Below are positions 7,577 to 62,501 of a stretch of 64,000 nt of DNA, piece after piece. Each line of letters opens with the position of its first letter. Position 1 is the stretch's first letter. Origin of the DNA: a virus; IMG/VR virus record IMGVR_UViG_3300043468_001540, positions 37,995 to 101,994 of that record. One strand, 5' to 3'. The position numbers and the translations under genes are program-made. The notes beneath the pieces are model-generated. The model saw only the letters and a list, made by a program, of their open reading frames with translations, had not been told where the DNA came from and did not search any database.

Positions 7577-9232
7577 TTAGCTTTCGCAGCTTTTACAGGT
7601 TAAAATTGATCTTGCCAGTTCTTGAGCGGGATTGGCACTTCTCTGATAGTAAAGAGACTTGATACCTTGTTCCCAGGCAAAAATCATGAGTTCATTCACA
7701 TCTTTTGGTTTTGTATCGGGGGGAATCATTATATTTAGACTCTGCCCTTGATCAATATATTTTTGACGTTGTGCCGCTTGTATAATAATTTCTTTTTGAG
7801 AAATTTCGCCAAATGTTTTAAATACCTCTTTTTCTTCTTGCGTTAAGAATTCTAAATGTTGAACACTACCACCTTTAATAAGAATAGATTTCCAGGTGTC
7901 GTCTTCATCTTTTCCTTTTTCTTTTAAGAGTTTTTTGAGATAAGGATTTTTAAAAGTAAATTTACCTTTTGCTAAATCTTTTACAAAATAATTACTGTTC
8001 AATGGCTCTATGCTTGGTGAAACTTGCCCTAGAATAAAACTTGATGACGTGGTAGGAGCGACGGCAAGTGTTGTTGTATTTCTCCTTTTTTCTTTCGAAT
8101 CTTTATAGATAGGGGCTTCTTTAAAAGAAGACGCCAGTTCTTTTGTAGCTAAGTCTGCTTTTTCTCTAATAGTTTTCCAGATTTGATTATTTAGCATTTT
8201 AGCTTCCATGGACTCAAAAGCTATCATCTTGGATTGAAGTAGCGAATGCCAGCCCAAAGCTCCTACTCCCAATGCTCTTTGATTTATTGCAAATCTTCTA
8301 GGGGCTTCCATGAATTTTATCCCCTCTGTTTTATTGATAAATTCTGTCATTACGGCATCGAGAAAATAAACTAAAGTTTCCACCGCGTCGGTTTCTTTCC
8401 ACTCGTCCCATTTTTCAAAATTTAAAGAAGAAAGGTCGCAAACGAAGGATTCTTCTTGATTATTTGAAAGCATAATCTCGCTACACAGGTTTGAATTATT
8501 AATTTTATAACCTTTTTCTTTATAAATTTCTGGCGCTTGATTATTTGCATTATCTGTAAAGAAAATATATGGATAACCTGACTCAAAGCGCTTTTTAATG
8601 ACAAGCCCCCACACTCTGCGAGCTTCTTTATCTCCATCAAGCATTTTTTTCATCCATTCGTCTGATACACAAACTCCAATAGAAAGATTTTGTATAGAGT
8701 GTCCTTCTCCACGAATTTTTAAAAACTCTTCAATATCTTGGTGATCAATTGGAAGATACGCGGCAAAAGACCCTCTTCTAACATTTCCTTGCGAAACTAC
8801 TTCCATAAGTTTATCATAAAGCTCCATAAAATGGACAGATCCTGTTGACTCTCCACCAGACGAAATCGGAGTCCCCCTTGCTCTAAGGGCTCCAAAATAA
8901 GCGGAAGTCCCCCCTCCATGTTTTGTCATAAGAGAGACTTCTGAGACTTTTTCCATTATATCTTCCATTGTATCTCCTACATAAGAACCAAAGCATGAAA
9001 TTGGAAGTCCTCTTTTTCTACCGAAATTTGCCCAAATAGGAGAACTTATTGAATAGTACCCTCTGCGCATGTATTCTTCAAATTTATCAGCAAAACATAG
9101 TATTCCTAAATACTTTTCAGCAATGTCTGCCATATCTCGAATACGTTGTTCTGGAGATTCTGCGTCTAGAAGATATCCTCTTTCTAGAAATTTTCGAGAA
9201 TCTTTATTTAACCAATAAATATCTTTTGACAT
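7577..9232 (-). CDS. nrdA: ribonucleotide reductase class Ia alpha subunit (short form, no ATP cone)
   Basis: PISCF, SQGNVRRGSFAAY, GYPYI, SNLCSEI, APTTSSS, SLYY and C-terminal CKSCES. Confidence 0.96.
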   Translation of the reverse strand: MSKDIYWLNKDSRKFLERGYLLDAESPEQRIRDMADIAEKYLGILCFADKFEEYMRRGYYSISSPIWANFGRKRGLPISCFGSYVGDTMEDIMEKVSEVSLMTKHGGGTSAYFGALRARGTPISSGGESTGSVHFMELYDKLMEVVSQGNVRRGSFAAYLPIDHQDIEEFLKIRGEGHSIQNLSIGVCVSDEWMKKMLDGDKEARRVWGLVIKKRFESGYPYIFFTDNANNQAPEIYKEKGYKINNSNLCSEIMLSNNQEESFVCDLSSLNFEKWDEWKETDAVETLVYFLDAVMTEFINKTEGIKFMEAPRRFAINQRALGVGALGWHSLLQSKMIAFESMEAKMLNNQIWKTIREKADLATKELASSFKEAPIYKDSKEKRRNTTTLAVAPTTSSSFILGQVSPSIEPLNSNYFVKDLAKGKFTFKNPYLKKLLKEKGKDEDDTWKSILIKGGSVQHLEFLTQEEKEVFKTFGEISQKEIIIQAAQRQKYIDQGQSLNIMIPPDTKPKDVNELMIFAWEQGIKSLYYQRSANPAQELARSILTCKSCES

Positions 9233-29500: not shown

Positions 29501-29603
29501 GATCGGTTAAGTAACCATTAATCCTTTTGTACCCAAAACCGACACCGTTTATATTAAACGGTCCACGATCATATAAAACTTTTATTTGTTCACTTGTTAA
29601 CAT
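26583..29603 (-). CDS. trypsin-like (PA clan) serine protease with Pro/Gly/Ser linker and Cys-rich C-terminus
   Basis: GTLGG, LTAGHVL (His), VDAGLI (Asp), SGDSGSLV (Ser), IIGLIFA. Confidence 0.82.
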   Translation of the reverse strand: MLTSEQIKVLYDRGPFNINGVGFGYKRINGYLTDQKAVIFHVERKISKDNLSSEEIFPETLEIDGQVYAVDVIESSSARIAGCNDPNSEVVKALQTDQKYIAGGLGISSTFSCGVPKDVSSSKNLVPKSYGTLGGIFLDNKTNTLVGLTAGHVLAKNIIRTLDQKDINSSFISNIHEDISLEYLTADLVNNKYYSSQMDSGLSFKQEIYHHTSSHLIDVDMHGIGTPKRYKILSLDPLASNTVDAGLISLYRSKLSIPQSFYQFGVSDTLSMQFATNIEINNLFSSKGNVFSIGRSSGPKLSECKLIIQNVTMTKEIDGYNYLGTKVPILFQDIMAINRVYQDDKTFLSGDSGSLVYAPISGTNKIIGLIFAIDGTTAYVSKITNIAAASNLDISPVIYNPSTRYKIDSDLNKSFLLENLNTATSEALTRNGKTFFQAGIIKEKNSNFVIKKTSDKSYLLAGTTPREAKAPIPRFSLSENTFYLNSMSADSNYDKSKKFLYLNFEVNFVRDLESDSFNSASPGEISFSYRIISLLDDSLDIILEAKTDIFGYAKIEYSTFLNKDNCFKVEILKAEKPGWNYKKSSGSSLLCSTNAALDTLVKRGDTDPLLPNVSISQDIPSTPTVSPPTNNPTVPPPYPPTPPPTPPGGGGGGGGGGGGGGGSSSSSSSSSSPTPPGGGNRGGGGGSSGGSSGGTSNNCVDPDFEDGTSPSNRPKPALEVSDLKTYCKNTQYGAGVYVSFKFKVTSGNFKVPDSEIGPWSLYVKEPGGTNKKFVQKSTLSSRASEITSSNAPTWTANDIEVPIARKSLALEAMLEVETNADYIVKDESILNTTSQINSSSSPSSVRCKKSYNDKYTYKITQALLDAPTSSQYDTASKANNPADKSCSCCYEAGKLKQGMGTGFLTAGEDKKDAEGICDRTPSSDVNGRKTRYMLDTSWSVSSLPCENGIDKASKCFRCKQVFDDSSSSSSSSSSSSSSSCADALRSASYNSMSELMSLFDIQDDMI
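27519..27740 (-). repeat. low-complexity Pro/Gly/Ser linker with tandem CCACCGCCA-type units
   Basis: Encodes PPPYPPTPPPTPP, a poly-Gly run, a poly-Ser run and PTPPGGG; locally GC-rich. A second poly-Ser run (GAAGAAGAAGAG units) lies at about 26668-26700. Confidence 0.85.
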
Positions 29604-41118: not shown

Positions 41119-44100
41119 TTAGGCAACCATTGTTGACCCTCCGCCCCCTCCAACAACTGGGGCCTGTTTAATATTTAGTTTTTCCATAACAGCAGCAATT
41201 TGTTTCTTTACTTCTGCTATTTGGGTATCGAGTTGCTGATTAATATTATTAACTCCATCTACATTTACAGCTAAATCTACGCTTACATTATTTGTTTGAG
41301 ATGTTCCTCCGGTTGCGCCCGCGCCCGCCGCAGGCCCGGCATCTTTTGATCCATCTTTCGTATTTGTATTTTGCCCAGCTGAGAACTTATCAACAAGGGC
41401 TTGGTTCCAAGTGCCAAGATTTGTATTTAACGACTTTATCTCAGACCCAAGAGAGCTAACAGCGTCACCGCCAATCGTTTCAGTTTTAACAGGAGTAATT
41501 GGAGCCCCTGTCACCGACCCAGTTGTGGCCGGTGCATTTTTACCAGTTGTAAACTTATCAACAAGAGCTGGATCGTAAGTACCATCATTTACTGAAGGAG
41601 TAATTGGTTTAGCGTCCACCTTTGTCGCTGGAGCCGTGGTAACTGGAGGAGGTAAAGGTGGTAAGCCGCCACCACCTGGAGCCATTCTTGCGGCAGTAAC
41701 TGGATCTGAAAAAAAGCTACGAAATACATTAACTACCTTATCCATGAAACCTTCTGGGAGAGGTTCTGCTGGTTTTGGGGCTTCTGGTTTTTCCGGTTCC
41801 GGGGGGGTAGGAGGAGGGGTATTGAGTATATCAATAATCGATTGAATTTGACTAGAAATACCACTTAACGCAGCATTAGAACTTTGTTGTTGACCCTCAA
41901 ATATTGATTTAAATGCACTTATAGTTTTTTGGTCTCTCGCCTCCGCTTCTTTTTGAGCGTCAGCTAAGCCTGGAGCGGCTTTTGCCACTTGTTTTTCCGC
42001 TGCGGCCTCGCTCTTATCGGCATTTTTGTCAAATTTCTTTTCGTCCATTGTTCCGGTTAATTGAGCCATTTGATTTTCCGCAATCCCGCGAACACCTCCC
42101 GGCTGACTAGTCAGGGATTTAATCATACTTTCAATAACACCTTTAGCAGTACCACTTTCTGTAGTAGACGCCATATTCTTTAAAGATGCGATTTTTGCAT
42201 TTATATCTTTTTCAATAGTATCTACTCCTAATTTATATTCTTTACTATTAGCGTCCGGTTTATACAATCCGCCGCTCATGTCTTGCATAGATTTTATTAA
42301 TTGTAAAATATTCCGACCCCCCTCTTCCCCCATTTCTTCTTTACCTTTTTTATAAATATAACCACCTGATCCCGAATTTGTAGCTTCGAAGGAACCTGGC
42401 CCCTGTTTTACATTTTGACCAATTTTTTGTAGTATATCATTTACAGGTTGCGTAGATTCTTGGGCCGCTGACATAAACGGATTTTCATCAATTGGATTTA
42501 TTACCGAATCTGCGCCGCCAAAAACTTTTAAAGATTTTTGCAAATTCTGCATCGCAACTTTTTGAGTGGCTTCTTTTGCGACTACTTGGGTTTGTTGTTT
42601 AGCCGTTTGATTTGTAGCTACTATACTCGAATTTGCAGCATTAACCGCGTTTGTAACCTGAGTTGAGAATGCAGCTTGATCTTGAGCAGACAGTCCCAAC
42701 TCACTTGCAATTTTTTGTAATTCAGATATAATAGCGGAATCATCTATCAACCCACCCTTTTCATCTCTTGGTTTTAAAAGTTCTGAAATCTTTGACCCCA
42801 AATCAGTATTAAGAGTGTTAAGAAGATTTTGAAACCCCCCTCCAGCTTGGGCTAAATCAAGCGCACTTTTCGTTCCTGATTTTTGTCCATAGCTACTAGC
42901 TCCTATTGCTGATAATAAATTATTTATAGCTCCTCCGCCCCCGCCCTCTTCGTCGCCCTTGTCAGAAGCGTCTGAAATTGGTTTTAATAAATTTTGTAGA
43001 ATACTTTCTTGTAACTCTTGCCCCGTAGCTTGATTTGTGGATTCGCGGGTACTAGATATCTTATTTAATTGAACATCTATAGTTTTTTTCAAACTTAAGG
43101 CGGAGTCTTCCCCAGTTAAAGCCACGGCTCTTTCTTGGCGACCGGAAAGAGAACTTGAGGTCCGACTTTTCGAAAAGTCCATTTCAGATAATTTATAAGA
43201 ATTCATAGTCTTATTAAAATTTAAGATATTATCTGCATTTTTTTGTAATATTGCCGCCGCCTGTTGAACCTCTTTAGTAAGAGTTTGCTTTAACTTGTTA
43301 AAAGCGTTCTCAGCAGATTTATCCACACCATCTATAATATCCGCCGTATCTTCAAATTGTTGAGCTGTTTGTTCTAGCGCTTGATTTAGAAAACCAATTG
43401 CCCCAATTAAACTTGTGTCAGCTAAGCCTGATAAAGCTTTTTTAATCGGTTCTCCTATATTTAAATTTTGGAGTGTTTCGTCGAACTTTTGGCGAGAATC
43501 TACTGTTGATAATTTGTTACCTCTAACTTCCTCAGCAGACTTAAATTGTCCGGATGCCATCGAAGTTTCCGCAAATTTAGATTTAACAAAAGTATCTTGT
43601 TCTTTACTTTTAAAAGACACTCCAAATTGTTTCATAAAACTCTGACCAACATCACCGAAGTCTTGGGCTAATTTTAAATCAGCAAATTCCTTAGCCTTTT
43701 TATTAGAAATTGCCGCTAAAGCTTCTGAGGCTTTATTTAATGATCCTGCGGATAATACTGATTTTTTTTGTTCTTCGGTAAGTCCATTTAAACTAGCAGC
43801 AAAATTCTTTCTAGTTTTATTTATCAACTCTTGATTATCACCCGCCAGTGCGTTTTGATAATCTTCATAAGCTTGAAGAACTGTAGATGCCCCATTATTT
43901 AATTGATTAAGCTCTTGAGATGATTTTAGAGCTGCCGCTGAAAGTTCTGGCATATCGGTAGATAATTGTCCGATTATATCTGGTAAAGACAATAAAGCGC
44001 CAGCGGCGGCACCAAGCCCCGCGCCAACAAGCGTCCCAGCTCCAGGGGCAATTGCACTACCTATCATCGCACCAGTTCCGGCAAAAGCCCCGATTTGCCC

Positions 44101-47100
44101 AACAGAACTTGCGGCTGAAGCGCCAACACGTCCAGCTTTAGAATTTTGTGGGATACTATTTGCTATCGTTTCAGCAATAACTGGAGCGGCAAAAGCTAAA
44201 GGACCCCCGGCCCCTTTTAAGCCAGCTTTCAATTTCATTGAAGTTGGCACCTTGCCGTCTACTTTAGTGTTTTTGATTTTATCAAAAGTTTCTTTTGTTA
44301 TTTCGCCTGCATTCAACTGATCCCTAGCTGCTTGCCTGTTAGCTTTAGCCATTTCAATAATAGATTTTTGATAATCTTCTTTATTATAATTTAAATAAAA
44401 AGCTAAACTTCCAAGCTGGGTTCCCACTGCCGCTAAATTAGCCGCTAATGAAGGCCCTTCATTTTGAACGGCTTCAGTGGTATTTTCTACTTGACCAGTT
44501 AAAGATTGCAATGAACTATTAAATTTATCAACAGTCCCTGTCGCCGAAGCATCTGCGCCATTTGCAAAATTCGGAATATATCCTTTTGATTTATTTCTTA
44601 TAGCTTTATTTTCAGAAGTAACCGACCCCTCATCTCTTTTATTAAAAACGCCAAGTCCTGTAGGATTAGCGCCCGAAACAAGGGCATCTTTCTGTGCTAC
44701 GTATATTTGGCTTTTAGGCAATCCAGACTCTTGAAGTTCCCGCCCAATCGAATCACTCAAAGCATTAGCAAAATTAGGAATATAACCTTCAGCTGCATTG
44801 GGTATTCCATATTTTTGTGGAAAAATTCCACTTAATTTTTTAATAAATTTAGTTGGTAAATATTGTTTTAATTTTTGGTATTTATCGCGCTGTTCTCTTA
44901 GCCCTTGAATTTTAACTGCAACTTCTTCTGGGGTAGTCTTTGTAATACGGGATGGTAAGGTCGATAATTCTGCTAAAATTGGATCTAATCTTTTATCTAA
45001 TTTTGAATTAATTCTACTTAAAATTTCTGGAAAAACATCGGCACGATTTTTTATATTTGGACCAATTTGATTTATAGTTGAGATTACATGGTCGGCAAAT
45101 ATTTTAGAAATTAATTTTGAGTCTCCAGCTAATATAGCCGCTCTAGCGTCAGTGCCACTAATACCCTCGGTTCTTTCACCAACATTTACTTTATATCCAG
45201 CATCTTTATATTTTTGAAGATCTTTTTCTTGCTTGTCCGAACCAACAAAAGCCATACTACCACTTTTAGCGGACAAGAATTTTCTTCTTTTACCCACGGG
45301 ATCAACTTCAAGCATTTTAGGTATAGTGCCGCCAGTAAAAAGATCGGAATTAGCACCAATAACATTAGCACCTGTAAATGTTTTCTTTGCCAAGTATTTT
45401 CTTGTTTTTTGATCGAAAATTGCAGTTCTAAAAGAATGTGGATCTTTTGGGTCTATTTTACCCCCCTCTTTTGAAACAGCTACAATAAAATCTTCTGGGG
45501 AAATACCCTGCTTTTTGGCCATTTCCATCATATCTAAATGACCCCTAGTCGAAGGAGAAAAAGCACCATAAGAAAGACCAATTTGTTTCTTTTCTACCAG
45601 CGGTAACTCATCGCCTTTTTTCCTTTTTAATTTAAAATTTTCATTTATACCCATCACCCTTGTTTTATTCGGGCCTAGAACTGAAAGCGCCATTGCTTCA
45701 ATGTAACCACTATCTAAAGAGGCACCTTGGGATGTACCAGCGGAGCGACCAAAAGCAGTGTTAGATTTACCTTGTAAAATTTGAGAATCTCTTAAGTCGC
45801 GTCTTCTTTTAATTTCTTTTTGCTCTTCTGGAGTAGAAGAAGACATAATCATTAATCTATCTAAACCAGACCAATATCCACCTTCTAACGCTTTTGTAGT
45901 TCCAACTAAAGAAGCCCTAGTGTCAATTATTTCATCAACTCTTCCAATATCTTTTGGTGTAATAATTGGAATTCTTTCCGTTTTACGAGCTTTAGCATTA
46001 TCGGCTTTTTCCGCATTTTTACCGCCTAGCATCATAGTGCTTTTGCCAGCGCCAGGAACGCCGAAAATTCCAGTAAATTTTTTTATAGATCCGGATTTTC
46101 TAGCTTTTTTTGCCATGTCGCCTAGATACTTATGATATTCTGGCAACCCACCTTTTAATCCTAATTTTTTAATTTCTTCTGCGACCGTGGCTTCATATCT
46201 AGGATCAGATAAAACATCCCCGTCTAAATATCCGACTCTTCTATTTGCAAAATTTGGAATGTACCCACTCGCTCTAGATTTCCAAAATTTTAAAGCACTC
46301 GCCCCTTTAGGGGTAGATGCGAATTTAGATAATTTAGAAAAATCATCTTTAGTGTAACCAGCGGACTCAAATTGAGGCTTTACATAATCCCAATCTCCCA
46401 TTTTTAAGGCGTCTAACGTAAATGACCTTCCAAAGCTAGTACCCAAAGCTTTTGATAAATTTAATACTTTGTCTTTTCCTTTTAATGGAAAGCTCATTGG
46501 GGTCATAAATTTTTCTAAACCAGTAACATTAACCCCAAGTTTTTGCGCAGCCTTTATATAAGCCTCATCTTTTAATCCAGACCCCTCTTTTAACTTCTTA
46601 GTAATATTGGAATTTACAAGGCTTGCTCTTTTTGAAACTTCTTGAATTAGATTTGGATTGGCAAAATTAGGAATATATCCAGCCGCTTTAGATTTTACTT
46701 TTTTACCCTTTTTCCCCTCAACGGGTGGAGCTTTAAGATATCCATCAGTAAGACCCTTCCTAATAACATCATAGCCTAAAGATTCGGAATACTTTGCCTC
46801 ATAATCGCCTGGCATATTATTAAACAACGATCTCAACTCGGGATTTGGATTAACAAAGTCAATAGTAGCGCTAGCGCCACCTTTTCTTGCCGCTTGTGCA
46901 ACGGTCGAATTTGTTGCCTGTGTTACGGCTGTTTCAAAAACTGTCCCAGCTATACTGTTTAGTGAACCAAGATTCGCTAGTTCATTTGGGCTTGAAATCT
47001 TAGACGTGTCACTTCCAAAAAAACTAGTATATCTATTTGTATAATCAACTACAAATTTGCCAAGACCATCCACAAGATTTTCCTCTTCTGGCTGTATAGC

Positions 47101-49272
47101 TTTTTTAGGATTAAACCCACCCGCGTTTATCCTCGCCTGATACACTTGGTTTTTCGGTCCGAACTGCCCATCCTTATCTTTATACCTAGGTTCTATCTTT
47201 TTATAAGAATCTGACTTTTTACCATAGATAAGACCTAATCTTTCCGTGCCACCAAGATCTACGACTTCTGGTTTTACTGGGGACGGCGCTTTAGGTCTAG
47301 ACTCCCCCAAAGCAGCGTTAACTTTTTCTTTACCATAGGCGCTAGATAACTGTGATCGACTATAAGTGCCCTTTTTAAAACCCTCAACTGCTGTTTCGAA
47401 TGGTACATCTTTACCGATTGCAGCAAAATTAGGAATATAACCCATTGCCATAGACATGGATTTTTGCATGTCTCTGGTTAAAATTGCAGTTTCTCCACTC
47501 CCGCCGAAATTTGGAATCAGCTTTTCACCACTATTAATAATAGTAGGTTCGCCATTAATATTAAACGGGCCAATTGGTTTATCATTAGATTTAGCGCCGC
47601 CAACTCCACGTTTTACGTCACGAGATTCTTTTGAGAAGGCAGGAATATAGCCATCAGCTTTTGTTTTCGGCGTTTTAACTGTAGGAACGCCTTCATTAAC
47701 TCGAACTCCTTTTGAATATAAACTAGAAGCGATCTTGGCACTTAATTGTGACTGTTTTTGTAATTCTAAAGTTTGTAATTTAAAACTATTCAATAATTGC
47801 AAGGCGACTTCATTTACAGAAACAGTGCCTTTCATCATTGATTGCAATAATTTAGGATTTTGACCTAATATCGCATTAATACTTTTTTGAATATCAGCTT
47901 GTTGTTTAGCCGATGTATTTAAATTTAAGACTTCTTTAATACTACCTTTAGCATAAACAGTAAAATCTTTTAATAATTTTATTAATACTCCGCCTATAAG
48001 AGCCAAACCTGGACCAGCTATAACTTGAGCCAAGCCGTCAATAATACCTTTTCCTAAAACGGCACCGTAACTATTACCATCAGCTTCATTTGCGGTTCCC
48101 AAAATACTATTAGCGCCCCCAACTACTCTTTCAAATGTTGGGCCTAATAATCTCTCACCAACAGATGCAGATAATTGTTTTGCATTTTCTTTTAAAATAT
48201 TTAATTGAGCTGCGTATGTTTTATTTAACTCCTCATTTCTCTGTATAGCCTGATCAGTTGATGCAGCCGAAACTTGTAACGCTCTATTATAAATAGAGTT
48301 TTCTTTACCGAGATCTTGCAAAGTGGCTTTTAAAATGTTTATTTGGAAAACGCCACCGACAGCCTCAGCCACGGCCGCCTTTTGAGTCGTTCCAAGTCCC
48401 TCATAAACATCCGATAAATCTTTAAGTAATTGAACTGTATTTTTAAGTTTTCCACTTGCGTCCGTTGTACCTACCCCTAAGTTTTCTAAAACATCAATAA
48501 CTTTTTGTCGCTCCAATCGAGTAAAAATTGTTTTAAAAGAGTTACCAATTACAGATCCACCACGAGCGGTAGTTTGTTGTGCCGAAGTAACTAATGCAAT
48601 TAATTCGTTTAAGCTAACTCCAGATTGTGCGGCACTACTACCAACTCGACTAATAGCCTCAGCTAAATCAGCCGAACTTACGGCGAAAGCTGCGTCTACG
48701 TTAGCAAATTTATTTACAATTTCAGTACTATTTACCGCTTCGGAAGCAAAAGAGTTAATTGACGCAGTAAGAGAATCAACAGCTTTGGCGGCGTCTAAAC
48801 CACTTAATCTTGATAAAATTAAAGCGTCACTAGTTCTTTTAAGTGTCTCTGTAACAGAAAGCCCCTGTCTAGAAAATTCTGTAGCGGCAACCGCTACTTG
48901 ATCAAAAGACTGTCCAGTATTTTTGGCGATACTAAAAAGACCGTCTCCAAAAGCGGCTATTTCTTTTGTAGATACGTTTAAAATAACATTTATATCTTGA
49001 AGAGATTTTTGAACATTAATAGTGCTTTGAACCAGTTCGTCCATTGCGGTTTTAACACCAAAAATAATACCAGCACTAGCTCCGAAAGCCAAAACGCGAG
49101 CATTCGAAGCGTCTAAAGATTTATTAAACTCAGAAACCTGAGATGTTATTCTACCAAGCGGCTGAGAACCTTTTGTATCAATTTTTATCGAATAACTTTT
49201 AGCAACAGTTTTTCTAATTTCATTCTCTAACTGTCGAGTATCTCCAGCAATATTAAGTTTAATGTCCGCCAT
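41119..49272 (-). CDS. tail tape measure protein (TP901/PhageMin_Tail-type core) with internal enzyme cassettes
   Basis: N-terminal IAKNTGQSFDQV...EFSRQG...AVSSADLAEAISRVGSSA...GGSVIGNSFKTIFTRL is the classic TMP core. Follows the tube and chaperone genes; has a glycine-zipper hydrophobic region and central GYIPNFA-delimited modules. Confidence 0.92.
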   Translation of the reverse strand: MADIKLNIAGDTRQLENEIRKTVAKSYSIKIDTKGSQPLGRITSQVSEFNKSLDASNARVLAFGASAGIIFGVKTAMDELVQSTINVQKSLQDINVILNVSTKEIAAFGDGLFSIAKNTGQSFDQVAVAATEFSRQGLSVTETLKRTSDALILSRLSGLDAAKAVDSLTASINSFASEAVNSTEIVNKFANVDAAFAVSSADLAEAISRVGSSAAQSGVSLNELIALVTSAQQTTARGGSVIGNSFKTIFTRLERQKVIDVLENLGVGTTDASGKLKNTVQLLKDLSDVYEGLGTTQKAAVAEAVGGVFQINILKATLQDLGKENSIYNRALQVSAASTDQAIQRNEELNKTYAAQLNILKENAKQLSASVGERLLGPTFERVVGGANSILGTANEADGNSYGAVLGKGIIDGLAQVIAGPGLALIGGVLIKLLKDFTVYAKGSIKEVLNLNTSAKQQADIQKSINAILGQNPKLLQSMMKGTVSVNEVALQLLNSFKLQTLELQKQSQLSAKIASSLYSKGVRVNEGVPTVKTPKTKADGYIPAFSKESRDVKRGVGGAKSNDKPIGPFNINGEPTIINSGEKLIPNFGGSGETAILTRDMQKSMSMAMGYIPNFAAIGKDVPFETAVEGFKKGTYSRSQLSSAYGKEKVNAALGESRPKAPSPVKPEVVDLGGTERLGLIYGKKSDSYKKIEPRYKDKDGQFGPKNQVYQARINAGGFNPKKAIQPEEENLVDGLGKFVVDYTNRYTSFFGSDTSKISSPNELANLGSLNSIAGTVFETAVTQATNSTVAQAARKGGASATIDFVNPNPELRSLFNNMPGDYEAKYSESLGYDVIRKGLTDGYLKAPPVEGKKGKKVKSKAAGYIPNFANPNLIQEVSKRASLVNSNITKKLKEGSGLKDEAYIKAAQKLGVNVTGLEKFMTPMSFPLKGKDKVLNLSKALGTSFGRSFTLDALKMGDWDYVKPQFESAGYTKDDFSKLSKFASTPKGASALKFWKSRASGYIPNFANRRVGYLDGDVLSDPRYEATVAEEIKKLGLKGGLPEYHKYLGDMAKKARKSGSIKKFTGIFGVPGAGKSTMMLGGKNAEKADNAKARKTERIPIITPKDIGRVDEIIDTRASLVGTTKALEGGYWSGLDRLMIMSSSTPEEQKEIKRRRDLRDSQILQGKSNTAFGRSAGTSQGASLDSGYIEAMALSVLGPNKTRVMGINENFKLKRKKGDELPLVEKKQIGLSYGAFSPSTRGHLDMMEMAKKQGISPEDFIVAVSKEGGKIDPKDPHSFRTAIFDQKTRKYLAKKTFTGANVIGANSDLFTGGTIPKMLEVDPVGKRRKFLSAKSGSMAFVGSDKQEKDLQKYKDAGYKVNVGERTEGISGTDARAAILAGDSKLISKIFADHVISTINQIGPNIKNRADVFPEILSRINSKLDKRLDPILAELSTLPSRITKTTPEEVAVKIQGLREQRDKYQKLKQYLPTKFIKKLSGIFPQKYGIPNAAEGYIPNFANALSDSIGRELQESGLPKSQIYVAQKDALVSGANPTGLGVFNKRDEGSVTSENKAIRNKSKGYIPNFANGADASATGTVDKFNSSLQSLTGQVENTTEAVQNEGPSLAANLAAVGTQLGSLAFYLNYNKEDYQKSIIEMAKANRQAARDQLNAGEITKETFDKIKNTKVDGKVPTSMKLKAGLKGAGGPLAFAAPVIAETIANSIPQNSKAGRVGASAASSVGQIGAFAGTGAMIGSAIAPGAGTLVGAGLGAAAGALLSLPDIIGQLSTDMPELSAAALKSSQELNQLNNGASTVLQAYEDYQNALAGDNQELINKTRKNFAASLNGLTEEQKKSVLSAGSLNKASEALAAISNKKAKEFADLKLAQDFGDVGQSFMKQFGVSFKSKEQDTFVKSKFAETSMASGQFKSAEEVRGNKLSTVDSRQKFDETLQNLNIGEPIKKALSGLADTSLIGAIGFLNQALEQTAQQFEDTADIIDGVDKSAENAFNKLKQTLTKEVQQAAAILQKNADNILNFNKTMNSYKLSEMDFSKSRTSSSLSGRQERAVALTGEDSALSLKKTIDVQLNKISSTRESTNQATGQELQESILQNLLKPISDASDKGDEEGGGGGAINNLLSAIGASSYGQKSGTKSALDLAQAGGGFQNLLNTLNTDLGSKISELLKPRDEKGGLIDDSAIISELQKIASELGLSAQDQAAFSTQVTNAVNAANSSIVATNQTAKQQTQVVAKEATQKVAMQNLQKSLKVFGGADSVINPIDENPFMSAAQESTQPVNDILQKIGQNVKQGPGSFEATNSGSGGYIYKKGKEEMGEEGGRNILQLIKSMQDMSGGLYKPDANSKEYKLGVDTIEKDINAKIASLKNMASTTESGTAKGVIESMIKSLTSQPGGVRGIAENQMAQLTGTMDEKKFDKNADKSEAAAEKQVAKAAPGLADAQKEAEARDQKTISAFKSIFEGQQQSSNAALSGISSQIQSIIDILNTPPPTPPEPEKPEAPKPAEPLPEGFMDKVVNVFRSFFSDPVTAARMAPGGGGLPPLPPPVTTAPATKVDAKPITPSVNDGTYDPALVDKFTTGKNAPATTGSVTGAPITPVKTETIGGDAVSSLGSEIKSLNTNLGTWNQALVDKFSAGQNTNTKDGSKDAGPAAGAGATGGTSQTNNVSVDLAVNVDGVNNINQQLDTQIAEVKKQIAAVMEKLNIKQAPVVGGGGGSTMVA
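44563..47652 (-). repeat. dispersed peptide repeat GYIPNFA inside the tape measure gene
   Basis: Exact copies at 47422-47442, 46660-46680, 46246-46266, 44767-44787 and 44563-44583; degenerate GYIPAFS at 47632-47652 and LIPNFG at 47503-47520. Confidence 0.95.
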
Positions 49273-49327: not shown

Positions 49328-50338
49328 TTATCCACCTTCCCTAGCGCTTAAATAATCATTTTTTTCTATAATACCACCATTCTCTTTAGCAAGTTGTAAT
49401 AAACTTTTTCCCTTAATTTTTTCAATTTTTACGCCCATATCTTTCAAATCATTGTTTGTCGCTCCAACGTAACTAGAAACATTATTATTAGCGTCTCTAT
49501 TTTTCTTTATAGACCCTTGTTTTCCATTTTGTTGCCCATCTATGAATGAAACAAATTTTTCTGGTTCAGATAGAATTTCATCCGGGATAGCTTTTCCTAT
49601 CTCCGCTCTATTTTTAATAAAATTTCTATACATCTTTCCATATAAAAGTAAATTACTTTGATATCTCGTACATTTAAACAAAGGCGCTCCCCAAAAATCC
49701 ATAGGATCGCTTGAAATAAAAATTAAGTTTTGAAAAAAACCTGTAGCGGCTAAGCACTGGATTCTTTTCTCGGAAAGATTATCATTAATAATATAGAATT
49801 TATCTTTTATCTTTTGTAAATCGATAACATCTTCTCCCTCAATCGAGCTATCTTCAAAAAGTTTCTGAGTGAAAGAGCTGTCTTTAAAAACATGATTTTT
49901 AATTAAATCTTCGTTTGATCGAGATTCCGCATAGTCTTCTGCCGTATAACCAACTATTTCGCGCCGATCTTTCGTATAAGATAAAAGAATATAATTATTT
50001 TTATCTATTTGTTTTTGTATTTCTTCTTTTTGTGAGGTATAAAGTAATTTATCTTTTGTTTTAGCTAGGTTCCTAAGGGTAATTTTTAGAAAGTCAATCC
50101 TTGATTCGTTCTCAGATGACCACCAATTTCCATCAATAGCGTCCTTAATTTTATCAGCTTCTTTAAATAAACCAATAGCAAGCGCTTCTTGTAAATATTT
50201 ATCATAGCATTTAACGCTATTAAAATATTCATTTATAGATAAATGCTTAAAATAAATTATAGTTTGATCAATTTCTTGAATAGAAAAGCCATCACATATT
50301 TCAGAATAGAGCTTTCCATATTTATCTTGATCATTCAC
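49328..50338 (-). CDS. putative tail assembly chaperone (TMP-proximal)
   Basis: Position between the tube and TMP genes; helical and charged; GTG start. Confidence 0.5.
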   Translation of the reverse strand: MNDQDKYGKLYSEICDGFSIQEIDQTIIYFKHLSINEYFNSVKCYDKYLQEALAIGLFKEADKIKDAIDGNWWSSENESRIDFLKITLRNLAKTKDKLLYTSQKEEIQKQIDKNNYILLSYTKDRREIVGYTAEDYAESRSNEDLIKNHVFKDSSFTQKLFEDSSIEGEDVIDLQKIKDKFYIINDNLSEKRIQCLAATGFFQNLIFISSDPMDFWGAPLFKCTRYQSNLLLYGKMYRNFIKNRAEIGKAIPDEILSEPEKFVSFIDGQQNGKQGSIKKNRDANNNVSSYVGATNNDLKDMGVKIEKIKGKSLLQLAKENGGIIEKNDYLSAREGG

Positions 50339-50339
50339 A

Positions 50340-51176
50340 TCACGATTTTATTTCTTCGGGGGGAAAATTACTACTTTGAGAATCAGATGTATTAACGTCG
50401 CTAGATACGCTCACGCTCGCTTGCACGGGTTCTTGTACAGTAGATTCTTTAATTGATTCTTGCTTTTCTTCTTCTTTTTCTTCGCTTTTGGAATAATCCT
50501 GATCATAAAGAGCGAAATCGTTTTTACTATCAATTCTTCCCAAGAACCAAAGAGTGATTAAATAAGCCGATCTTTTTAATACTATTTCTAAATAGTTATC
50601 TTTGCTTTCGCTATCTTCAATTAAATCGTACTGTTCAAGTTTATCATTAAAAGTTTTACCGCCGCAAACATGGGAATAAGACCCATCCTCATTTATTTTG
50701 TATGTTAAATTCAATACCCACCATAATATGGTTTTATTTCGAGCCTTAGCCTCGGCGGTATTTTCAAATATAGAAATTTGAGACGATTCAAAACTTTGAA
50801 TATCTGAACGTATATCATTTATTCTGTCAGTTTTTTCTTTTAATTCTTTTAAGTTGTCTTCTGTTTGATTTTTCTCATCTATCGATAAAAGCTGCTGAAT
50901 ACTAGAAGATAACTCTTGAAACTCTAGTAAAAGTTGCCCATATCTTTCCCTCTCTTCATCACTTATAACTCCCCCACTATTTGATAATATAGTACCCCAG
51001 GCCGCTTTTGGTAAAATGCCAGCTTTTGCATATCTAGAAACTTCTGCGGCAAAAAAAACTTCACCATCTTCTTTTAATCGGCGATTTGGCTTTAAGAATC
51101 CAAAATTATGAGATACCCCTAAATTGTCTTTATGAGTAAAATTGTATAGCCATTTTCCATTATTAGTATTTTCCAT
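50340..51176 (-). CDS. putative tail assembly chaperone
   Basis: Position; central coiled coil; acidic disordered tail. Confidence 0.5.
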   Translation of the reverse strand: MENTNNGKWLYNFTHKDNLGVSHNFGFLKPNRRLKEDGEVFFAAEVSRYAKAGILPKAAWGTILSNSGGVISDEERERYGQLLLEFQELSSSIQQLLSIDEKNQTEDNLKELKEKTDRINDIRSDIQSFESSQISIFENTAEAKARNKTILWWVLNLTYKINEDGSYSHVCGGKTFNDKLEQYDLIEDSESKDNYLEIVLKRSAYLITLWFLGRIDSKNDFALYDQDYSKSEEKEEEKQESIKESTVQEPVQASVSVSSDVNTSDSQSSNFPPEEIKS

Positions 51177-59026: not shown

Positions 59027-59647
59027 TTAAATTATTTCTTTTTCGATTTGCTTTGCTTCGGCTTCCCTTCTTTCCAAAAGACCATCTAGCCCTTTATTAA
59101 GCCATAATCTTTTCATACTTCTAATTTCTCTTGCGATAGATTTATAATTTTTTTTAGGCACTAAATTCTTTATATTTCTCATTTCTAACCGGGAATCGCC
59201 TTTTAAACTAGTACCTCTATTAAAAATTAATGATACGATAGCCCCGTAAGCATCCGGAGAAAAAAACTCTAATCCAGGGAATGTTTTTTCGGCTAATTTT
59301 GAAAATTTAGGCCAAGTAAATTTCTCAAACATTTGTACCGCCATGTCCCAACTTACAGAAATTCCCGCTGATCTCAAACTTCTTGTATATTCTTTCCCAT
59401 TAGATCCAGTTTTACCAGAAGCGCCTTTAACCAAATTAAGTTCATTATCCGGTAAAAATGAAAATATTTTACCAAGCTCTTCTTTTGAGTAATAAGCACA
59501 ATCAATCCCTATGGCAATTGTTGGCCCTGAAGCCCCGCCTGGCCAAGTAAATTTAGACAAATATTTCTCGTAATAACTTTTACCACCGCCAACTTCATAT
59601 TTTAACAATAAATCAAGTGTATTTTTCGATGGTTTACTTAAGCTCAT
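59027..59647 (-). CDS. endolysin, lysozyme-fold (pesticin/GH24-like)
   Basis: LLKYEVGG (catalytic Glu), WPGGASGPTIAIGID, AIVSLIFNRG and GLLERREAEA. Confidence 0.8.
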   Translation of the reverse strand: MSLSKPSKNTLDLLLKYEVGGGKSYYEKYLSKFTWPGGASGPTIAIGIDCAYYSKEELGKIFSFLPDNELNLVKGASGKTGSNGKEYTRSLRSAGISVSWDMAVQMFEKFTWPKFSKLAEKTFPGLEFFSPDAYGAIVSLIFNRGTSLKGDSRLEMRNIKNLVPKKNYKSIAREIRSMKRLWLNKGLDGLLERREAEAKQIEKEII

Positions 59648-60863: not shown

Positions 60864-62501
60864 TTAAAATTTTCTATGAATTTTTAGTCTAGGATATTTT
60901 ACACTAGTATTTCCTCTTAATTGGTAATTAAAGTCTGGAATTGTCATACCAGAATATTTTCTAAATGGATAATTGTATAGATATAAATTAGCCGCCCCTT
61001 CAAACCTACCATACTCGTCAGAAGGGTCATCTGTTAAAGCGTTTGGAATAGATAACTTTTCTGTTATAAATTTTAAAACGTCAGCTTGTGTTAATTTTGG
61101 AAATCTTTGCATTAGACACGCAATAACCCCACAGACTTGAGGTGAAGCCATACTCGTTCCGCTGTATTTGTCTAGACGAAAATTACTGTTTCTCGGATCA
61201 GTAATTCCGTCGGTGTGAACAGAACTTATAATGGAACTTCCCGGAGACCATACGTTAATTCTAGGTCCATAGTTACTATAATACGCCTTCATCTCGACTC
61301 CAGCTGAATTAGTGTTTTCTACGGCTCCAACGCATATAACATTTGCATCCGACGGTGGGCTCGATCCCCGATGGTAATTATCCCAGGTTCCGAATGACTG
61401 AACTGCGTCATCCCATGATATTCCATTTGGCACGTCAATTTTCGTTGTCTCATTTCCCGCCGAGCCGACCATTATTATACCATCATTTATTGCGTCCTGA
61501 ACGTCAATCTCCATAGCTGCGTCTCTAATAGGTACAAGAACTGTGTTTGCATTAATTGGTACAATATTATAATTATAAAATAATTGACTAATAGTAAAAG
61601 GCCCAGTGAAAACAGTGCCTTGAAACAATACTCTAGTTATGTTCGAAACCGCTACTTGTAAACCATAACCCCAACTACAATTAACAACCGTCGGATTAGT
61701 TAATCCTGTAGTGGGATTTACGATTTTAGCATTATGAAAAGCTCTTATATAATCAAAATGAAATGCGATGTCAATGTTATTAACATCTGTTCCATAAGGA
61801 TTAATATTGTATATGTTAGCTCTTCTTGCCCATCCCTGTCGATTACCAGCTACGGTCCCAGCAACGTGCATTCCATGATTATTATCATCCGTTCTATCTG
61901 GATTCCCTGTATCATTGTATGGAGTATAAATATATGTTCCATTAGCTCCACCTTGTACTACCGACCTATGTAAAAGCCAATTATATTGAATTACCCTACT
62001 CCCACCAGTTCCATCTGCATTCAATGCCATTTCTGGGTGAGCGGGATTAACCATGCCATCCGAAATCACGACATCTACATTTAAGCCATCGCTTGAACTA
62101 ATAATTTGCCTGTCTCCAGGCGTACAAAAAGTAGTTCCCCAATCAGAGATATTTTGATTTAAACTGCATCGAAGCAGTCCCCAATTGATATCATTAATAT
62201 TTTGATCGCCACATTTATCCCAATCCGAAGATCTTTGTATCCAATGCGGTCTAACACGGACACCTCGTTGATGAGGCGAAACCTGCACATTAATAATACC
62301 ACTTTCATTTTTTATTTTTTCAGCCTCACTATCTGTGAGTAGATAATGAGTATTTCTACTAGTTGGTCTACGATGAATTACTTCCACTTTTCTATTAGGA
62401 ATAAATTCACCTCCGCTATTGGACTCCATTTTCTCATAGAGCGCATCAAGCTGGCTTTTATCTTCAACAGATATAATGTATTCTTTTAAATCCTCGGTCA
62501 T
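60864..62501 (-). CDS. subtilisin-like S8 serine peptidase
   Basis: VVISDG (Asp), NNHGMHVAGTVAG (His), SAGN oxyanion, YSGTSMASPQVCG (Ser); N-terminal prodomain-like region. Confidence 0.93.
   Translation of the reverse strand: MTEDLKEYIISVEDKSQLDALYEKMESNSGGEFIPNRKVEVIHRRPTSRNTHYLLTDSEAEKIKNESGIINVQVSPHQRGVRVRPHWIQRSSDWDKCGDQNINDINWGLLRCSLNQNISDWGTTFCTPGDRQIISSSDGLNVDVVISDGMVNPAHPEMALNADGTGGSRVIQYNWLLHRSVVQGGANGTYIYTPYNDTGNPDRTDDNNHGMHVAGTVAGNRQGWARRANIYNINPYGTDVNNIDIAFHFDYIRAFHNAKIVNPTTGLTNPTVVNCSWGYGLQVAVSNITRVLFQGTVFTGPFTISQLFYNYNIVPINANTVLVPIRDAAMEIDVQDAINDGIIMVGSAGNETTKIDVPNGISWDDAVQSFGTWDNYHRGSSPPSDANVICVGAVENTNSAGVEMKAYYSNYGPRINVWSPGSSIISSVHTDGITDPRNSNFRLDKYSGTSMASPQVCGVIACLMQRFPKLTQADVLKFITEKLSIPNALTDDPSDEYGRFEGAANLYLYNYPFRKYSGMTIPDFNYQLRGNTSVKYPRLKIHRKF

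What the first reader, a model, noticed from the sequence alone, without database searches (positions are those of the whole stretch)
44563..47652. Tape measure protein built as a cassette polyprotein: enzyme cargoes bracketed by a repeated GYIPNFA motif
Seen: residues ~541-1570 of the 2717-aa TMP are punctuated by GYIPNFA at aa 611, 865, 1003, 1496 and 1564, plus GYIPAFS (541) and LIPNFG (585). The motif is usually preceded by K/R-rich residues and A-x (TKAD, SKAA, SRAS, NKSK). The five exact copies differ only at synonymous positions (GGT/GGA/GGG, TAT/TAC, CCT/CCA/CCG, GCT/GCC/GCA), so selection appears to act on the peptide. The blocks between motifs are 70, 254, 138, 493 and 68 aa, are unrelated to each other, and do not look like helical TMP sequence; two carry enzyme motifs. 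Known: TMPs are ejected into the cell at infection, are often proteolytically processed, and some carry peptidoglycan hydrolases. Inference: this is an effector-delivery system in which swappable cytoplasmic enzymes ride inside the tail lumen, with GYIPNFA acting as a cleavage or recognition site and possibly also as a recombination joint for cassette exchange. I do not know of a described system with this architecture, but I cannot search the literature.
Basis: partly seen in the sequence, partly recalled or inferred. Interest (0 to 1): 0.95.

Follow-up and report, generated by a model that had tools for sequence, protein, structure and literature searches.

The report
Tape measure protein with motif-fenced cassettes
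The tail-length "ruler" protein of this large uncultured phage carries a row of separately folding modules, one a kinase plus adenylyltransferase, each fenced by the same seven-residue peptide; related phages add, drop, swap and reorder modules at that peptide, so it looks like a natural plug-in slot for proteins that travel in the tail.

Summary
ORF 41119-49272(-) encodes a 2717-aa TP901-type tape measure protein (TMP). It has five exact GYIPNFA copies, plus GYIPAFS and an internal LIPNFG.

The motif extends to A-[A/S]-x-G-[F/Y]-[I/V]-P-N-F-A. It occurs 2-11 times in almost all of about 200 related giant TMPs examined, out of at least 579 viral contigs. It was found in no other gene across 1.6 Mb of loci.

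- **Architecture:** The 63-, 247- and 61-aa blocks are a conserved core. Only the 131-aa and 486-aa blocks are accessory cassettes.
- **Exchange at the motif:** Close relatives insert extra cassettes exactly at the motif. In related loci, DNA alignments break and resume at the motif, and two cassettes appear in swapped order.
- **Structure:** AlphaFold places every motif in a low-confidence linker.
- **Enzyme content:** The 486-aa cassette is a confident P-loop kinase-like domain plus an HxGH (NMNAT/PPAT-like) adenylyltransferase, with invariant catalytic motifs. The 247-aa core block has an E..D..(D/E)xK pattern but no fold match.
- **Sister lineage:** TMPs up to 7279 aa carry the same cassette fenced by a cognate GG-x-[IV]-Q-[KR]-F-A-x-GG peptide.

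Cleavage at the motif, delivery into the host and enzyme activity are all untested. I found no paper describing this. The scan has already noted the same family in at least 7 other genomes.

The parts
41119..49272 (-). Whole tape measure protein gene, 2717 aa (P0001)
   Evidence: PF10145 at aa 116-307, E 6e-31. PHROG TMP families down to 4.7e-50.
47653..49272 (-). Conserved N-terminal TMP domain, aa 1-540. This is the most conserved part of the family.
   Evidence: One search shows many invariant columns; hit in 80 of 81 loci, median identity 52%.
47632..47652 (-). Junction motif 1, GYIPAFS (aa 541-547)
   Evidence: The first motif sits at about aa 545 in 183 relatives.
47443..47631 (-). Start mini-module (family 2), aa 548-610. 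It contains the internal LIPNFGGSGE.
   Evidence: The AF2 model of a homologue shows a helix plus a beta-hairpin.
47422..47442 (-). Junction motif 2, GYIPNFA (aa 611-617)
46681..47421 (-). Core module (family 1), aa 618-864. It has a conserved FE ... D ... (D/E)xK ... K pattern and an unidentified fold.
   Evidence: Present in 93 of 121 relatives. Alignment. AF2 pLDDT about 70-86 in a homologue. No significant fold match.
46660..46680 (-). Junction motif 3, GYIPNFA (aa 865-871)
46267..46659 (-). Accessory cassette (family 6), aa 872-1002, function unknown
   Evidence: Found in 17 relatives in varying positions. No Pfam, PHROG, NCBIfam or Atlas hit.
46246..46266 (-). Junction motif 4, GYIPNFA (aa 1003-1009). 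This is where relatives P0003 and P0004 carry one or two extra cassettes.
44788..46245 (-). Accessory cassette (family 4), aa 1010-1495. It comprises a P-loop kinase-like domain (Walker A at G1074/G1076/K1077), an HxGH nucleotidyltransferase (T1242-x-G-H1245; ISGT..R at 1372-1377) and a helical hairpin.
   Evidence: AF2 pLDDT 86, pTM 0.80. Foldseek: NadM/NMNAT/PPAT, 3e-5 to 1e-3. VIA: PPAT Z 12.1, NaMNAT 12.0, zeta toxin Z 8.2 for the N-terminal domain. Invariant residues.
44767..44787 (-). Junction motif 5, GYIPNFA (aa 1496-1502). Its 21 nt are identical to motif 2.
44584..44766 (-). End mini-module (family 0), aa 1503-1563, with conserved RE..G...SQIYV...NP.GLGV.N.RDE
   Evidence: Present in 95 of 121 relatives. 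Alignment.
44563..44583 (-). Junction motif 6, GYIPNFA (aa 1564-1570)
41119..44562 (-). C-terminal TMP body, aa 1571-2717. It contains a Gly/Ala-rich hydrophobic stretch near aa 1725-1765 and a Pro-rich tail, and is only about 30% identical even in the closest relatives.

Best explanation
This is a TP901-type tape measure protein with a modular array inserted after its conserved 540-aa N-terminal domain.

**Fixed frame.** The array has a start mini-module, a roughly 250-aa core module and an end mini-module.

**Accessory cassettes.** Independently folding cassettes are plugged into this frame. Here there are two:
- a 131-aa module of unknown function;
- a 486-aa P-loop kinase-like plus NMNAT/PPAT-like adenylyltransferase.

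**Junctions.** Every module boundary is a flexible basic/Gly-rich linker ending in A-[A/S]-x-G-[F/Y]-[I/V]-P-N-F-A.

**Shown**
- The motif is selected as a peptide and sits in linkers predicted to be disordered.
- It is specific to the TMP.
- It marks the points where related phages gain, lose, replace and reorder cassettes.

**Inferred**
- The junction peptide is a short linear recognition motif read by a conserved phage partner during tail assembly. Candidates are the conserved TMP N-terminal domain, the chaperone-position proteins encoded just upstream, or the tube lumen. This would let a TMP loaded with bulky modules still be threaded and measured.
- The modules leave the tail with the TMP at infection and act early in the host, tethered or after processing at the junction.
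- Recombinants are tolerated at the junction because it is the one place where any two modules can be joined in frame without harming either fold. The AT-rich 21-nt motif may add microhomology.
For: **TMP identity:**

**Motif properties**
- Logo from 671 copies: G and P 100%, N 94%, F 94%, A 81%, A/S at position -2 93%, nothing conserved downstream.
- 2-11 copies per protein.
- All 298 copies in 1.6 Mb of loci lie in TMP genes.
- Codon use within the motif is close to the gene background.
- All four motifs of a minimal core and both motifs flanking the 486-aa cassette fall in segments with pLDDT below 50.

**Architecture:** core versus accessory modules and different cassette orders, for example 1-8-4-24-10-0 versus 1-4-8-11-25-0.

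**Mosaicism**
- Block-by-block identity to P0003 is 70/96/58/88/94/78/30%. Insertions of 307 aa and 110 aa begin and end in the motif.
- L064 and L065 are 99% identical over 11.8 kb, diverge 15 nt after one motif and resume 10 nt before another.
- The L064/L066 cassette swap is bounded by motifs.
- L045 and L051 carry two cassettes in swapped order, with each HSP bounded by motifs.

**Enzyme content**
- Fold of the 486-aa cassette and its invariant catalytic motifs across 18 sequences down to 27% identity.
- GNAT, GHKL-like and P-loop cassettes in relatives.

**Sister lineage:** the same cassette is fenced by GG.[IV]Q[KR]FA.GG.

**Precedents:** P23-45 gp96 is a virion TMP-RNAP fusion. T5 pb2 is cut between the TMP and its enzyme domain. 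eCIS systems load cargo into the tube lumen.
Against: - No experiment or proteomic data exists for this uncultured phage. Presence of the array in virions, delivery and enzyme activity are all unshown.
- Folded domains of 20-55 kDa in three to six TMP copies do not obviously fit a tube lumen of about 4 nm, so the modules would need to be unfolded, staggered or located elsewhere.
- The universal core module has no recognisable fold, and most cassettes have no family assignment. "Enzyme cargo" therefore rests on a few cassettes.
- Breakpoints at the motif could reflect selection alone.
Confidence: 0.55

Rival explanations
1. Polyprotein reading. The motif is a proteolytic processing site, and the TMP is cut at each junction after tail assembly or after ejection. 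This would free the N-terminal domain, each module and the C-terminal body as separate polypeptides.
For: - The motif sits in exposed, disordered linkers. It has a strict 7-9 residue consensus and a basic upstream stretch, as expected of a protease site.
- [I/V]-P-N-F followed by A has hydrophobic P4 and aromatic P1 residues, the pattern subtilases prefer (my own knowledge). The window encodes an S8 subtilase in the structural module.
- Lambda gpH and T5 pb2 are cut inside tails. T5 is cut exactly between the TMP and its enzyme domain.
- Asn-Phe is the autocatalytic scissile bond in a tetravirus capsid (my own knowledge).
Against: - The S8 protease was found in only 3 of 10 related, mostly complete genomes.
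- Pfam detects no peptidase domain inside the TMP.
- The cognate junction in the sister lineage has K/R where this one has Asn. Its first copy here has Ala. A general Asn-cyclisation mechanism is therefore unlikely.
- Cutting at every junction would also sever the ruler in relatives that carry a second array further along the protein.
Confidence: 0.3
2. Structural reading. The array is not delivered cargo. It is a lineage-specific structural or assembly device, such as a plug, a length-register or chaperone-like modules. The enzyme-like folds would be relics, and the motif would be a trimer/hexamer register or strand-exchange element.
For: - Three of the five blocks, including both mini-modules (helix plus hairpin), are conserved frame rather than variable cargo.
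- The core module matches no enzyme fold.
- Neither the core module nor the 486-aa cassette was found as a stand-alone protein.
Against: - Walker A, TxGH and ISGT..R residues are invariant across cassette copies down to 27% identity, which argues for retained catalysis.
- Rapid gain, loss and reordering of cassettes between 99%-identical phages is typical of conflict-related accessory functions, not of a structural register.
- GNAT and GHKL-type cassettes in relatives have no obvious structural role.
Confidence: 0.1
3. The motif is mainly a DNA-level recombination signal, such as a site for a dedicated recombinase or a shufflon-like system, and its peptide conservation is a by-product.
For: Exchange breakpoints fall within or a few nucleotides from the 21-nt motif. 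Two copies in this gene are identical in all 21 nt.
Against: - Synonymous positions vary about as the gene's codon usage predicts.
- Amino-acid identity is kept across hundreds of divergent phages while the nucleotides drift.
- The motif occurs on one strand and in one frame only.
- The sister lineage keeps a similar peptide encoded by different DNA.
Confidence: 0.05

Closest known systems
Thermus phage P23-45 gp96, a TMP fused to a virion RNA polymerase (Chaban et al. 2024, PMC10770324)
   Same: A giant TMP carries a folded cytoplasmic-type enzyme. That enzyme is present in virions and acts at the start of infection.
   Different: gp96 has a single enzyme at the extreme N-terminus. It has no repeated junction motif, no cassette array and no reported swapping. 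Here the array lies after a PF10145 domain and holds 3-10 modules.
TMPs with embedded cell-wall enzymes that are cut during tail maturation: T5 pb2/pb2C (PMC10038345), lambda gpH*/gpHC (PMC12617516), and mycobacteriophage TMP motifs (my own knowledge)
   Same: Functional domains are embedded in a TMP. T5 is cleaved exactly between the TMP body and the enzyme domain. SLT and VanY domains also occur in the C-terminal parts of relatives of this TMP.
   Different: Those are single C-terminal peptidoglycan hydrolases acting in the periplasm. Here the modules are nucleotide-using, cytoplasm-type enzymes arranged in a multi-module central array with a repeated delimiter.
Polyvalent proteins of phages and conjugative elements (Iyer et al. 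2017, PMC5512222)
   Same: Large proteins combine many unrelated enzymatic domains in variable architectures. They are proposed to be injected with the DNA and processed into units. GNAT domains are shared.
   Different: They are described as head-packaged or conjugation-transferred proteins, typically with a metallopeptidase domain for processing. The paper does not mention tape measure proteins or linkers. No peptidase domain and no repeated delimiter motif are reported there.
Lumen cargo of extracellular contractile injection systems (bioRxiv 10.64898/2026.05.27.728243)
   Same: Proteins ride inside a phage-tail-like tube and are delivered into target cells, and a short sequence directs loading.
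   Different: eCIS cargo proteins are separate polypeptides with one N-terminal loading signal and need an AAA+ loader. Here the modules are covalently part of the TMP, and the signal is repeated at every boundary.
NadR / NadM / PPAT-type HxGH adenylyltransferases and zeta-toxin/AAA_33-type P-loop kinases (for the 486-aa cassette)
   Same: Fold matches: PPAT Z 12.1 over 145 residues at rmsd 2.9; NaMNAT Z 12.0; NadR Z 9.8; zeta toxin Z 8.2 over 151 residues. The Walker A, TxGH and ISGT..R motifs are present.
   Different: Sequence identity is 10-19%, and Pfam/NCBIfam hits are only sub-threshold. The domain order is kinase then transferase, the reverse of NadR. The substrate is unknown. The cassette was found only inside giant TMPs.

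Membership tests
TP901-1-type tape measure protein (Pfam PF10145 PhageMin_Tail) | PF10145 domain above the gathering score | tested here: met
   108.3 bits against a cut-off of 33.2, aa 116-307. PHROG TMP families reach 4.7e-50.
TP901-1-type tape measure protein (Pfam PF10145 PhageMin_Tail) | Largest gene of the tail module, lying between head/tail-tube genes and distal tail genes | tested here: inconclusive
   The gene lies in a co-directional block of large ORFs, and the upstream genes are syntenic in 58-74 of 81 loci. None of the neighbours has a Pfam or PHROG name.
TP901-1-type tape measure protein (Pfam PF10145 PhageMin_Tail) | Protein length sets tail length | not testable with these tools
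   The phage is uncultured and no micrographs are available.
Polyvalent proteins (Iyer et al. 2017) | Many unrelated effector-type domains in one polypeptide, with architecture that varies between relatives | tested here: met
Polyvalent proteins (Iyer et al. 2017) | Embedded peptidase (MPTase or similar) for self-processing | tested here: inconclusive
   Pfam found no peptidase domain in the window TMP or in eight relatives scanned. Most cassettes have no assignment, so a novel peptidase cannot be excluded.
Polyvalent proteins (Iyer et al. 2017) | Packaged in the virion and injected with the DNA | not testable with these tools
   Inferred only from TMP biology.
HxGH (HIGH-motif) nucleotidyltransferases, NMNAT/PPAT class (C-terminal half of the 486-aa cassette) | Rossmann-like nucleotidyltransferase fold | tested here: met
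   VIA: Z 12.1 (4nah_A, 145 aa, rmsd 2.9), 12.0 (4rpi_A), 11.8 (1f9a_A). Foldseek: 2.7e-5 to NadM. Model pLDDT is 86.
HxGH (HIGH-motif) nucleotidyltransferases, NMNAT/PPAT class (C-terminal half of the 486-aa cassette) | (H/T)xGH and ISxxxxR signature motifs | tested here: met
   S-T-R-G-H at aa 1241-1245 and I-S-G-T-D-A-R at aa 1371-1377. T, G, H, S, G, T and R are invariant in 18 sequences.
HxGH (HIGH-motif) nucleotidyltransferases, NMNAT/PPAT class (C-terminal half of the 486-aa cassette) | Family-level sequence membership (Pfam/NCBIfam above cut-off) and a known substrate | tested here: not met
   PF01467 scores 16.5 bits against a cut-off of 21. TIGR01510 scores 15.5 against 103. The cassette is a superfamily member only, with an undefined substrate.
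P-loop kinases (zeta-toxin / AAA_33-like) (N-terminal half of the 486-aa cassette) | Walker A motif and a P-loop kinase fold | tested here: inconclusive
   GVPGAGKST has invariant G, G and K. The only fold match listed for this half is zeta toxin 6epg_B, Z 8.2 over 151 aa at rmsd 3.7, near the noise level the tool states.
PD-(D/E)xK nucleases (247-aa core module) | Ordered E ... D ... (D/E)xK catalytic residues | tested here: met
   The alignment of 32 cores has invariant F-E, a conserved D, and (D/E)-x-K with invariant K. In the window these are FE, IDF and YEAK.
PD-(D/E)xK nucleases (247-aa core module) | Restriction-endonuclease-like alpha-beta-beta-beta-alpha-beta fold | tested here: inconclusive
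   AF2 model pLDDT is 66 overall. Foldseek against PDB and BFVD gave nothing at E<=0.001. VIA gave at best Z 5.6, on helices only.

The most novel reading that the evidence does not exclude
The G-x-[I/V]-[P/Q]-[N/K/R]-F-A junction (GYIPNFA here, GG.VQKFA.GG in a sister lineage) may be a general, portable loading or processing signal of PF10145-type tape measure proteins. On this reading it lets large tailed phages string arbitrary folded enzymes into the tail and deliver an exchangeable, ready-made enzyme kit into the host ahead of the genome. That kit would include a kinase-adenylyltransferase that could rebuild a nucleotide cofactor such as NAD+ or repair RNA. This would be a natural plug-and-play protein-injection system embedded in the ruler protein.
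Probability: 0.3. Interest if true: 0.9.

Novelty: new variant of a known kind. Interest (0 to 1): 0.8.

Why it matters
Tape measure proteins are usually seen as helical rulers that sometimes carry one cell-wall enzyme. Only one published case, P23-45, shows a cytoplasmic enzyme riding on a TMP.

Here hundreds of large uncultured phages (genomes of 108-209 kb among the records checked) share a TMP design in which a conserved short peptide fences up to ten modules, and those modules are exchanged like cassettes.

If the modules are delivered, this would be a new route for early anti-host or anti-defence enzymes. It would also be a natural template for engineering protein delivery by phage tails.

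The strictly conserved junction gives a concrete, mutable handle on two open questions raised in the recent lambda and T5 structural papers: how and where TMPs are processed inside tails, and how bulky domains are accommodated in the tube.

Tried and rejected
**Searches that found nothing**
- tblastn of the array against 50,697 GenBank phage records found no match, so no cultured relative is at hand.
- A single-protein scan of viral contigs with the core module found nothing. The one metagenome scan gave a single locus.
- Stand-alone homologues of the 486-aa cassette and of the core module were sought and not found. The exhaustive HMMER search found the cassette almost only inside giant proteins.
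- PHROG and Pfam named none of about 20 neighbouring structural genes apart from the S8 protease, a borderline lysozyme and a borderline NAL1_N hit.
- ESM Atlas gave no usable hit for the core module or the 131-aa cassette. Sequence search against PDB was uninformative.

**Tests that were inconclusive or negative**
- Fold searches of the core-module model (Foldseek against PDB and BFVD, and VIA wide) gave no meaningful match. The nuclease reading stays unproven.
- The profile-profile match of start and end mini-modules (98%) is driven by the shared flanking motifs, so it is not independent evidence of homology.
- Motif variants (Y/F, I/V) do not track the upstream or the downstream cassette. 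I could not decide which side the motif belongs to.
- The S8 subtilase as a dedicated motif protease is disfavoured, being present in only 3 of 10 relatives.
- Asn-mediated self-cleavage is disfavoured by the K/R at that position in the sister lineage.

The planned homotrimer test of the end mini-module with its motifs (alignment A4) was not run.
DNA of the closest relatives P0003 and P0004 could not be fetched, so their joints are shown at protein level only.
Full report
**1. Observation**

The window holds a 2717-aa ORF on the minus strand, 41119-49272. A script found GYIPNFA at aa 611, 865, 1003, 1496 and 1564, GYIPAFS at aa 541 and LIPNFG at aa 585. The motif occurs in no other frame of the 64-kb window.

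The five exact copies use different synonymous codons, although copies 611 and 1496 are identical in all 21 nt. Any repeated 7-mer appears in only 3% of shuffles of this protein, whereas the observed maximum is five copies.

**2. What the gene is**

- The N-terminal part matches PF10145 (PhageMin_Tail, 6e-31) and many PHROG tape-measure families, down to 4.7e-50.
- The C-terminal 1150 aa are low-complexity and include a Gly/Ala-rich hydrophobic stretch, as is usual for TMPs.
- The surrounding co-directional ORFs have no PHROG or Pfam names, and no GenBank phage matches the array. This is a very divergent, uncultured phage.
- Related records are 108-209 kb, and several are complete with terminal repeats.

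**3. The family**

A database search with aa 541-1570 returned 249 giant TMPs. A profile scan found at least 579 viral contigs.

Nearly all of the roughly 200 proteins I examined carry 2-11 copies of G[YF][IVL]PNF. The mode is four copies, the first copy sits at about aa 545, and array length ranges from 76 to 1897 aa.

A logo of 671 copies extends the motif to [G/N]-[A/K]-[A/S]-x-G-[F/Y]-[I/V]-P-N-F-A. The upstream stretch is Lys/Gly-rich and nothing is conserved downstream. In 1.6 Mb of related loci all 298 copies lie in TMP genes.

Clustering 553 inter-motif blocks gave 90 families. The architectures show two layers:

- **A fixed frame.** It consists of a start mini-module (58-80 aa), a core module (about 200-330 aa, in 93 of 121 proteins) and an end mini-module (56-75 aa, in 95 of 121 proteins).
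- **Accessory cassettes.** These vary in number, identity and order. For example, one protein reads 1-8-4-24-10-0 and another 1-4-8-11-25-0.

The window reads frame plus two accessories, the 131-aa family 6 and the 486-aa family 4.

**4. Exchange at the motif**

| Compared with | N-term | Start mini-module | Core module | 131-aa cassette | 486-aa cassette | End mini-module | C-terminal body |
|---|---|---|---|---|---|---|---|
| P0003 | 70% | 96% | 58% | 88% | 94% | 78% | 30% |
| P0004 | 71% | 94% | 62% | 97% | 86% | 76% | 30% |

These relatives carry two and one extra cassettes (307 and 110 aa). The alignment gaps for these insertions open and close inside the motif at aa 1003.

DNA of those two relatives could not be fetched, but related loci show the same pattern at nucleotide level:

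- L064 and L065 are 99.0% identical over 11.8 kb. They diverge 15 nt after one motif and realign 10 nt before another, with different cassette sets in between.
- L064 and L066 differ by one cassette, and the flanking alignments end and restart at the motifs.
- L045 and L051 carry two cassettes in opposite order, with each alignment bounded by motifs.

Codon usage within the motif is close to the gene background. Selection therefore acts on the peptide, and no extra DNA-level signal marks a dedicated recombination site.

**5. What the modules are**

*The 486-aa cassette.* AlphaFold2 with an 18-sequence alignment gave pLDDT 86 and pTM 0.80.

- Residues 229-410 of the model match HxGH nucleotidyltransferases: PPAT Z 12.1, NaMNAT Z 12.0, archaeal NMNAT Z 11.8, NadR Z 9.8, and Foldseek 2.7e-5 to NadM.
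- Residues 12-225 form a P-loop domain. Its only listed match is zeta toxin, at Z 8.2.
- Residues 395-489 form a long helical hairpin.
- Walker A (G1074, G1076, K1077), T1242-x-G-H1245 and ISGT..R (1372-1377) are invariant across copies down to 27% identity. This argues for retained catalysis.
- The substrate is unknown. NMNAT/PPAT-like chemistry next to a kinase recalls NadR, but that is a resemblance only.
- The cassette was not found as a stand-alone protein. An exhaustive search found it almost only inside proteins of 1.5-7.3 kaa.

*The core module.* It has an invariant F-E, a conserved Asp and a (D/E)-x-K with invariant Lys, which is the residue order of PD-(D/E)xK nucleases. Its model (pLDDT 66) matches nothing significant in PDB or BFVD, so the nuclease reading is unproven.

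*The other modules.*

- The 131-aa cassette has no assignment.
- In relatives, one cassette family is a GNAT acetyltransferase.
- One 569-aa cassette has a borderline GHKL ATPase hit, and one 170-aa family has a Walker A motif.
- SLT and VanY domains occur too, but in the C-terminal TMP body outside the array.

**6. The motif itself**

In both models every motif lies in a segment with pLDDT below 50. It is therefore a short linear motif in a flexible linker and not part of a fold.

Most giant TMPs that share the 486-aa cassette lack G[YF][IV]PNF, yet they are PF10145 proteins.

- In all 12 such proteins examined, the cassette is directly preceded by GG-x-[I/V]-Q-[K/R]-F-A-x-GG. A similar peptide or a D-[S/T]-V-P-A-M-L-T-P-G-E-F-V module follows it.
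- The cognate motif is six-fold enriched over shuffles (182 observed against 29).

GYIPNFA thus looks like a sharpened lineage-specific form of an older TMP junction, G-x-[I/V]-[P/Q]-[N/K/R]-F-A. The internal LIPNFGGSGE of the start mini-module resembles the VPAMLTPGE core of the sister lineage's module, judged by eye.

**7. Mechanism**

*Shown:* modular architecture, peptide-level selection, linker location, TMP specificity, exchange at the motif, and one confidently enzyme-like cassette.

*Inferred:* the modules are in the virion and leave with the TMP.

For the motif's function I favour recognition by a conserved phage partner during tail assembly or packing. The reasons are:

- Near-invariance across hundreds of phages whose TMP bodies have diverged to 30% identity implies a co-conserved reader.
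- The best-conserved neighbours are the TMP N-terminal domain (median 52% identity) and the upstream tail genes.
- No protease is consistently present. The window's S8 subtilase occurs in only 3 of 10 relatives.

Cleavage remains a serious rival.

- The site is exposed. Its hydrophobic P4 and aromatic P1 residues suit subtilases.
- T5 pb2 is cut between the TMP and its enzyme domain. Lambda gpH is cut by an unknown activity at an unknown site.
- Asn-mediated self-cleavage is unlikely as a general mechanism, because the sister lineage has K/R at that position.

A physical caveat applies to every reading. Three to six copies of folded 20-55 kDa domains do not obviously fit a lumen of about 4 nm. 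The block-size distribution peaks at 150-300 aa and few blocks exceed 350 aa, which may reflect such a limit.

**8. Comparison and novelty**

- P23-45 gp96 shows that a cytoplasmic enzyme can be part of a virion TMP.
- T5, lambda and mycobacteriophage TMPs carry single wall-degrading domains.
- Polyvalent proteins share the idea of multi-enzyme injected proteins, but the defining paper mentions neither TMPs nor delimiter motifs.
- eCIS systems load separate cargo proteins into the lumen through an N-terminal signal.
- Full-text searches for the motif strings found nothing.

I class the finding as a new variant of a known kind. Earlier notes of this scan describe the same motif-fenced TMP family in at least seven other genomes. 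My independent tests agree with them, and add the sister-lineage cognate motif and the fold of the kinase-adenylyltransferase cassette.

**9. Limits**

- No experimental data exist for this phage.
- Only two structure predictions were possible, so the 131-aa cassette and the window's own core module were not folded. The core model is of a homologue, L005.

Noticed in passing
window 60864-62501 (-): A 545-aa ORF in the structural gene block is a subtilisin-family peptidase (PF00082, 5.5e-27), which is unusual for a phage morphogenesis module. Homologues occur in only 3 of 10 related phage records, sometimes far from the tail genes.
   Followed up: partly
proteins P0122-P0185; e.g. P0127, P0144, P0151: A sister lineage of PF10145 tape measure proteins reaches 7279 aa. 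These proteins repeat a module of about 60 aa centred on D-[S/T]-V-P-A-M-L-T-P-G-E-F-V up to 8 times. They use GG.[IV]Q[KR]FA.GG at cassette borders. Several have a DxDxT (HAD-phosphatase-like) segment right after the kinase-adenylyltransferase cassette.
   Followed up: partly
window 47422-47442 and 44767-44787: Motif copies 2 and 5 are identical in all 21 nt and lie in direct orientation 2.6 kb apart. Recombination between them would delete the core module and both accessory cassettes in frame.
   Followed up: no
window 49328-50338 and 50340-51176 (-): Two abutting ORFs (278 and 336 aa) lie in different frames immediately upstream of the TMP, where tail assembly chaperones G/GT normally sit. 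They are much larger than usual chaperones, and I saw no clear slippery heptamer at the junction. They are conserved in 68-74 of 81 related loci.
   Followed up: partly
window 26583-29603 (-): A 1006-aa ORF downstream of the TMP hits the N-terminal domain of plant NARROW LEAF 1 (PF25608) exactly at the gathering score (27.0 bits, 3.9e-6). NARROW LEAF 1 is a trypsin-like protease family.
   Followed up: no
window 7577-9232 (-) and 59027-59647 (-): There is a ribonucleotide reductase large subunit (PF02867, 7.6e-98). A borderline phage-lysozyme hit (22.0 bits against a cut-off of 22.3) lies inside the head/tail gene block.
   Followed up: no
L066:12746-14452 and L051:13607-14116: Cassettes in related TMPs include a 569-aa module with a borderline GHKL ATPase hit (HATPase_c, 6e-5) plus a phage G1 gp67 C-terminal-like piece. 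There is also a 170-aa module with only a Walker A motif.
   Followed up: no
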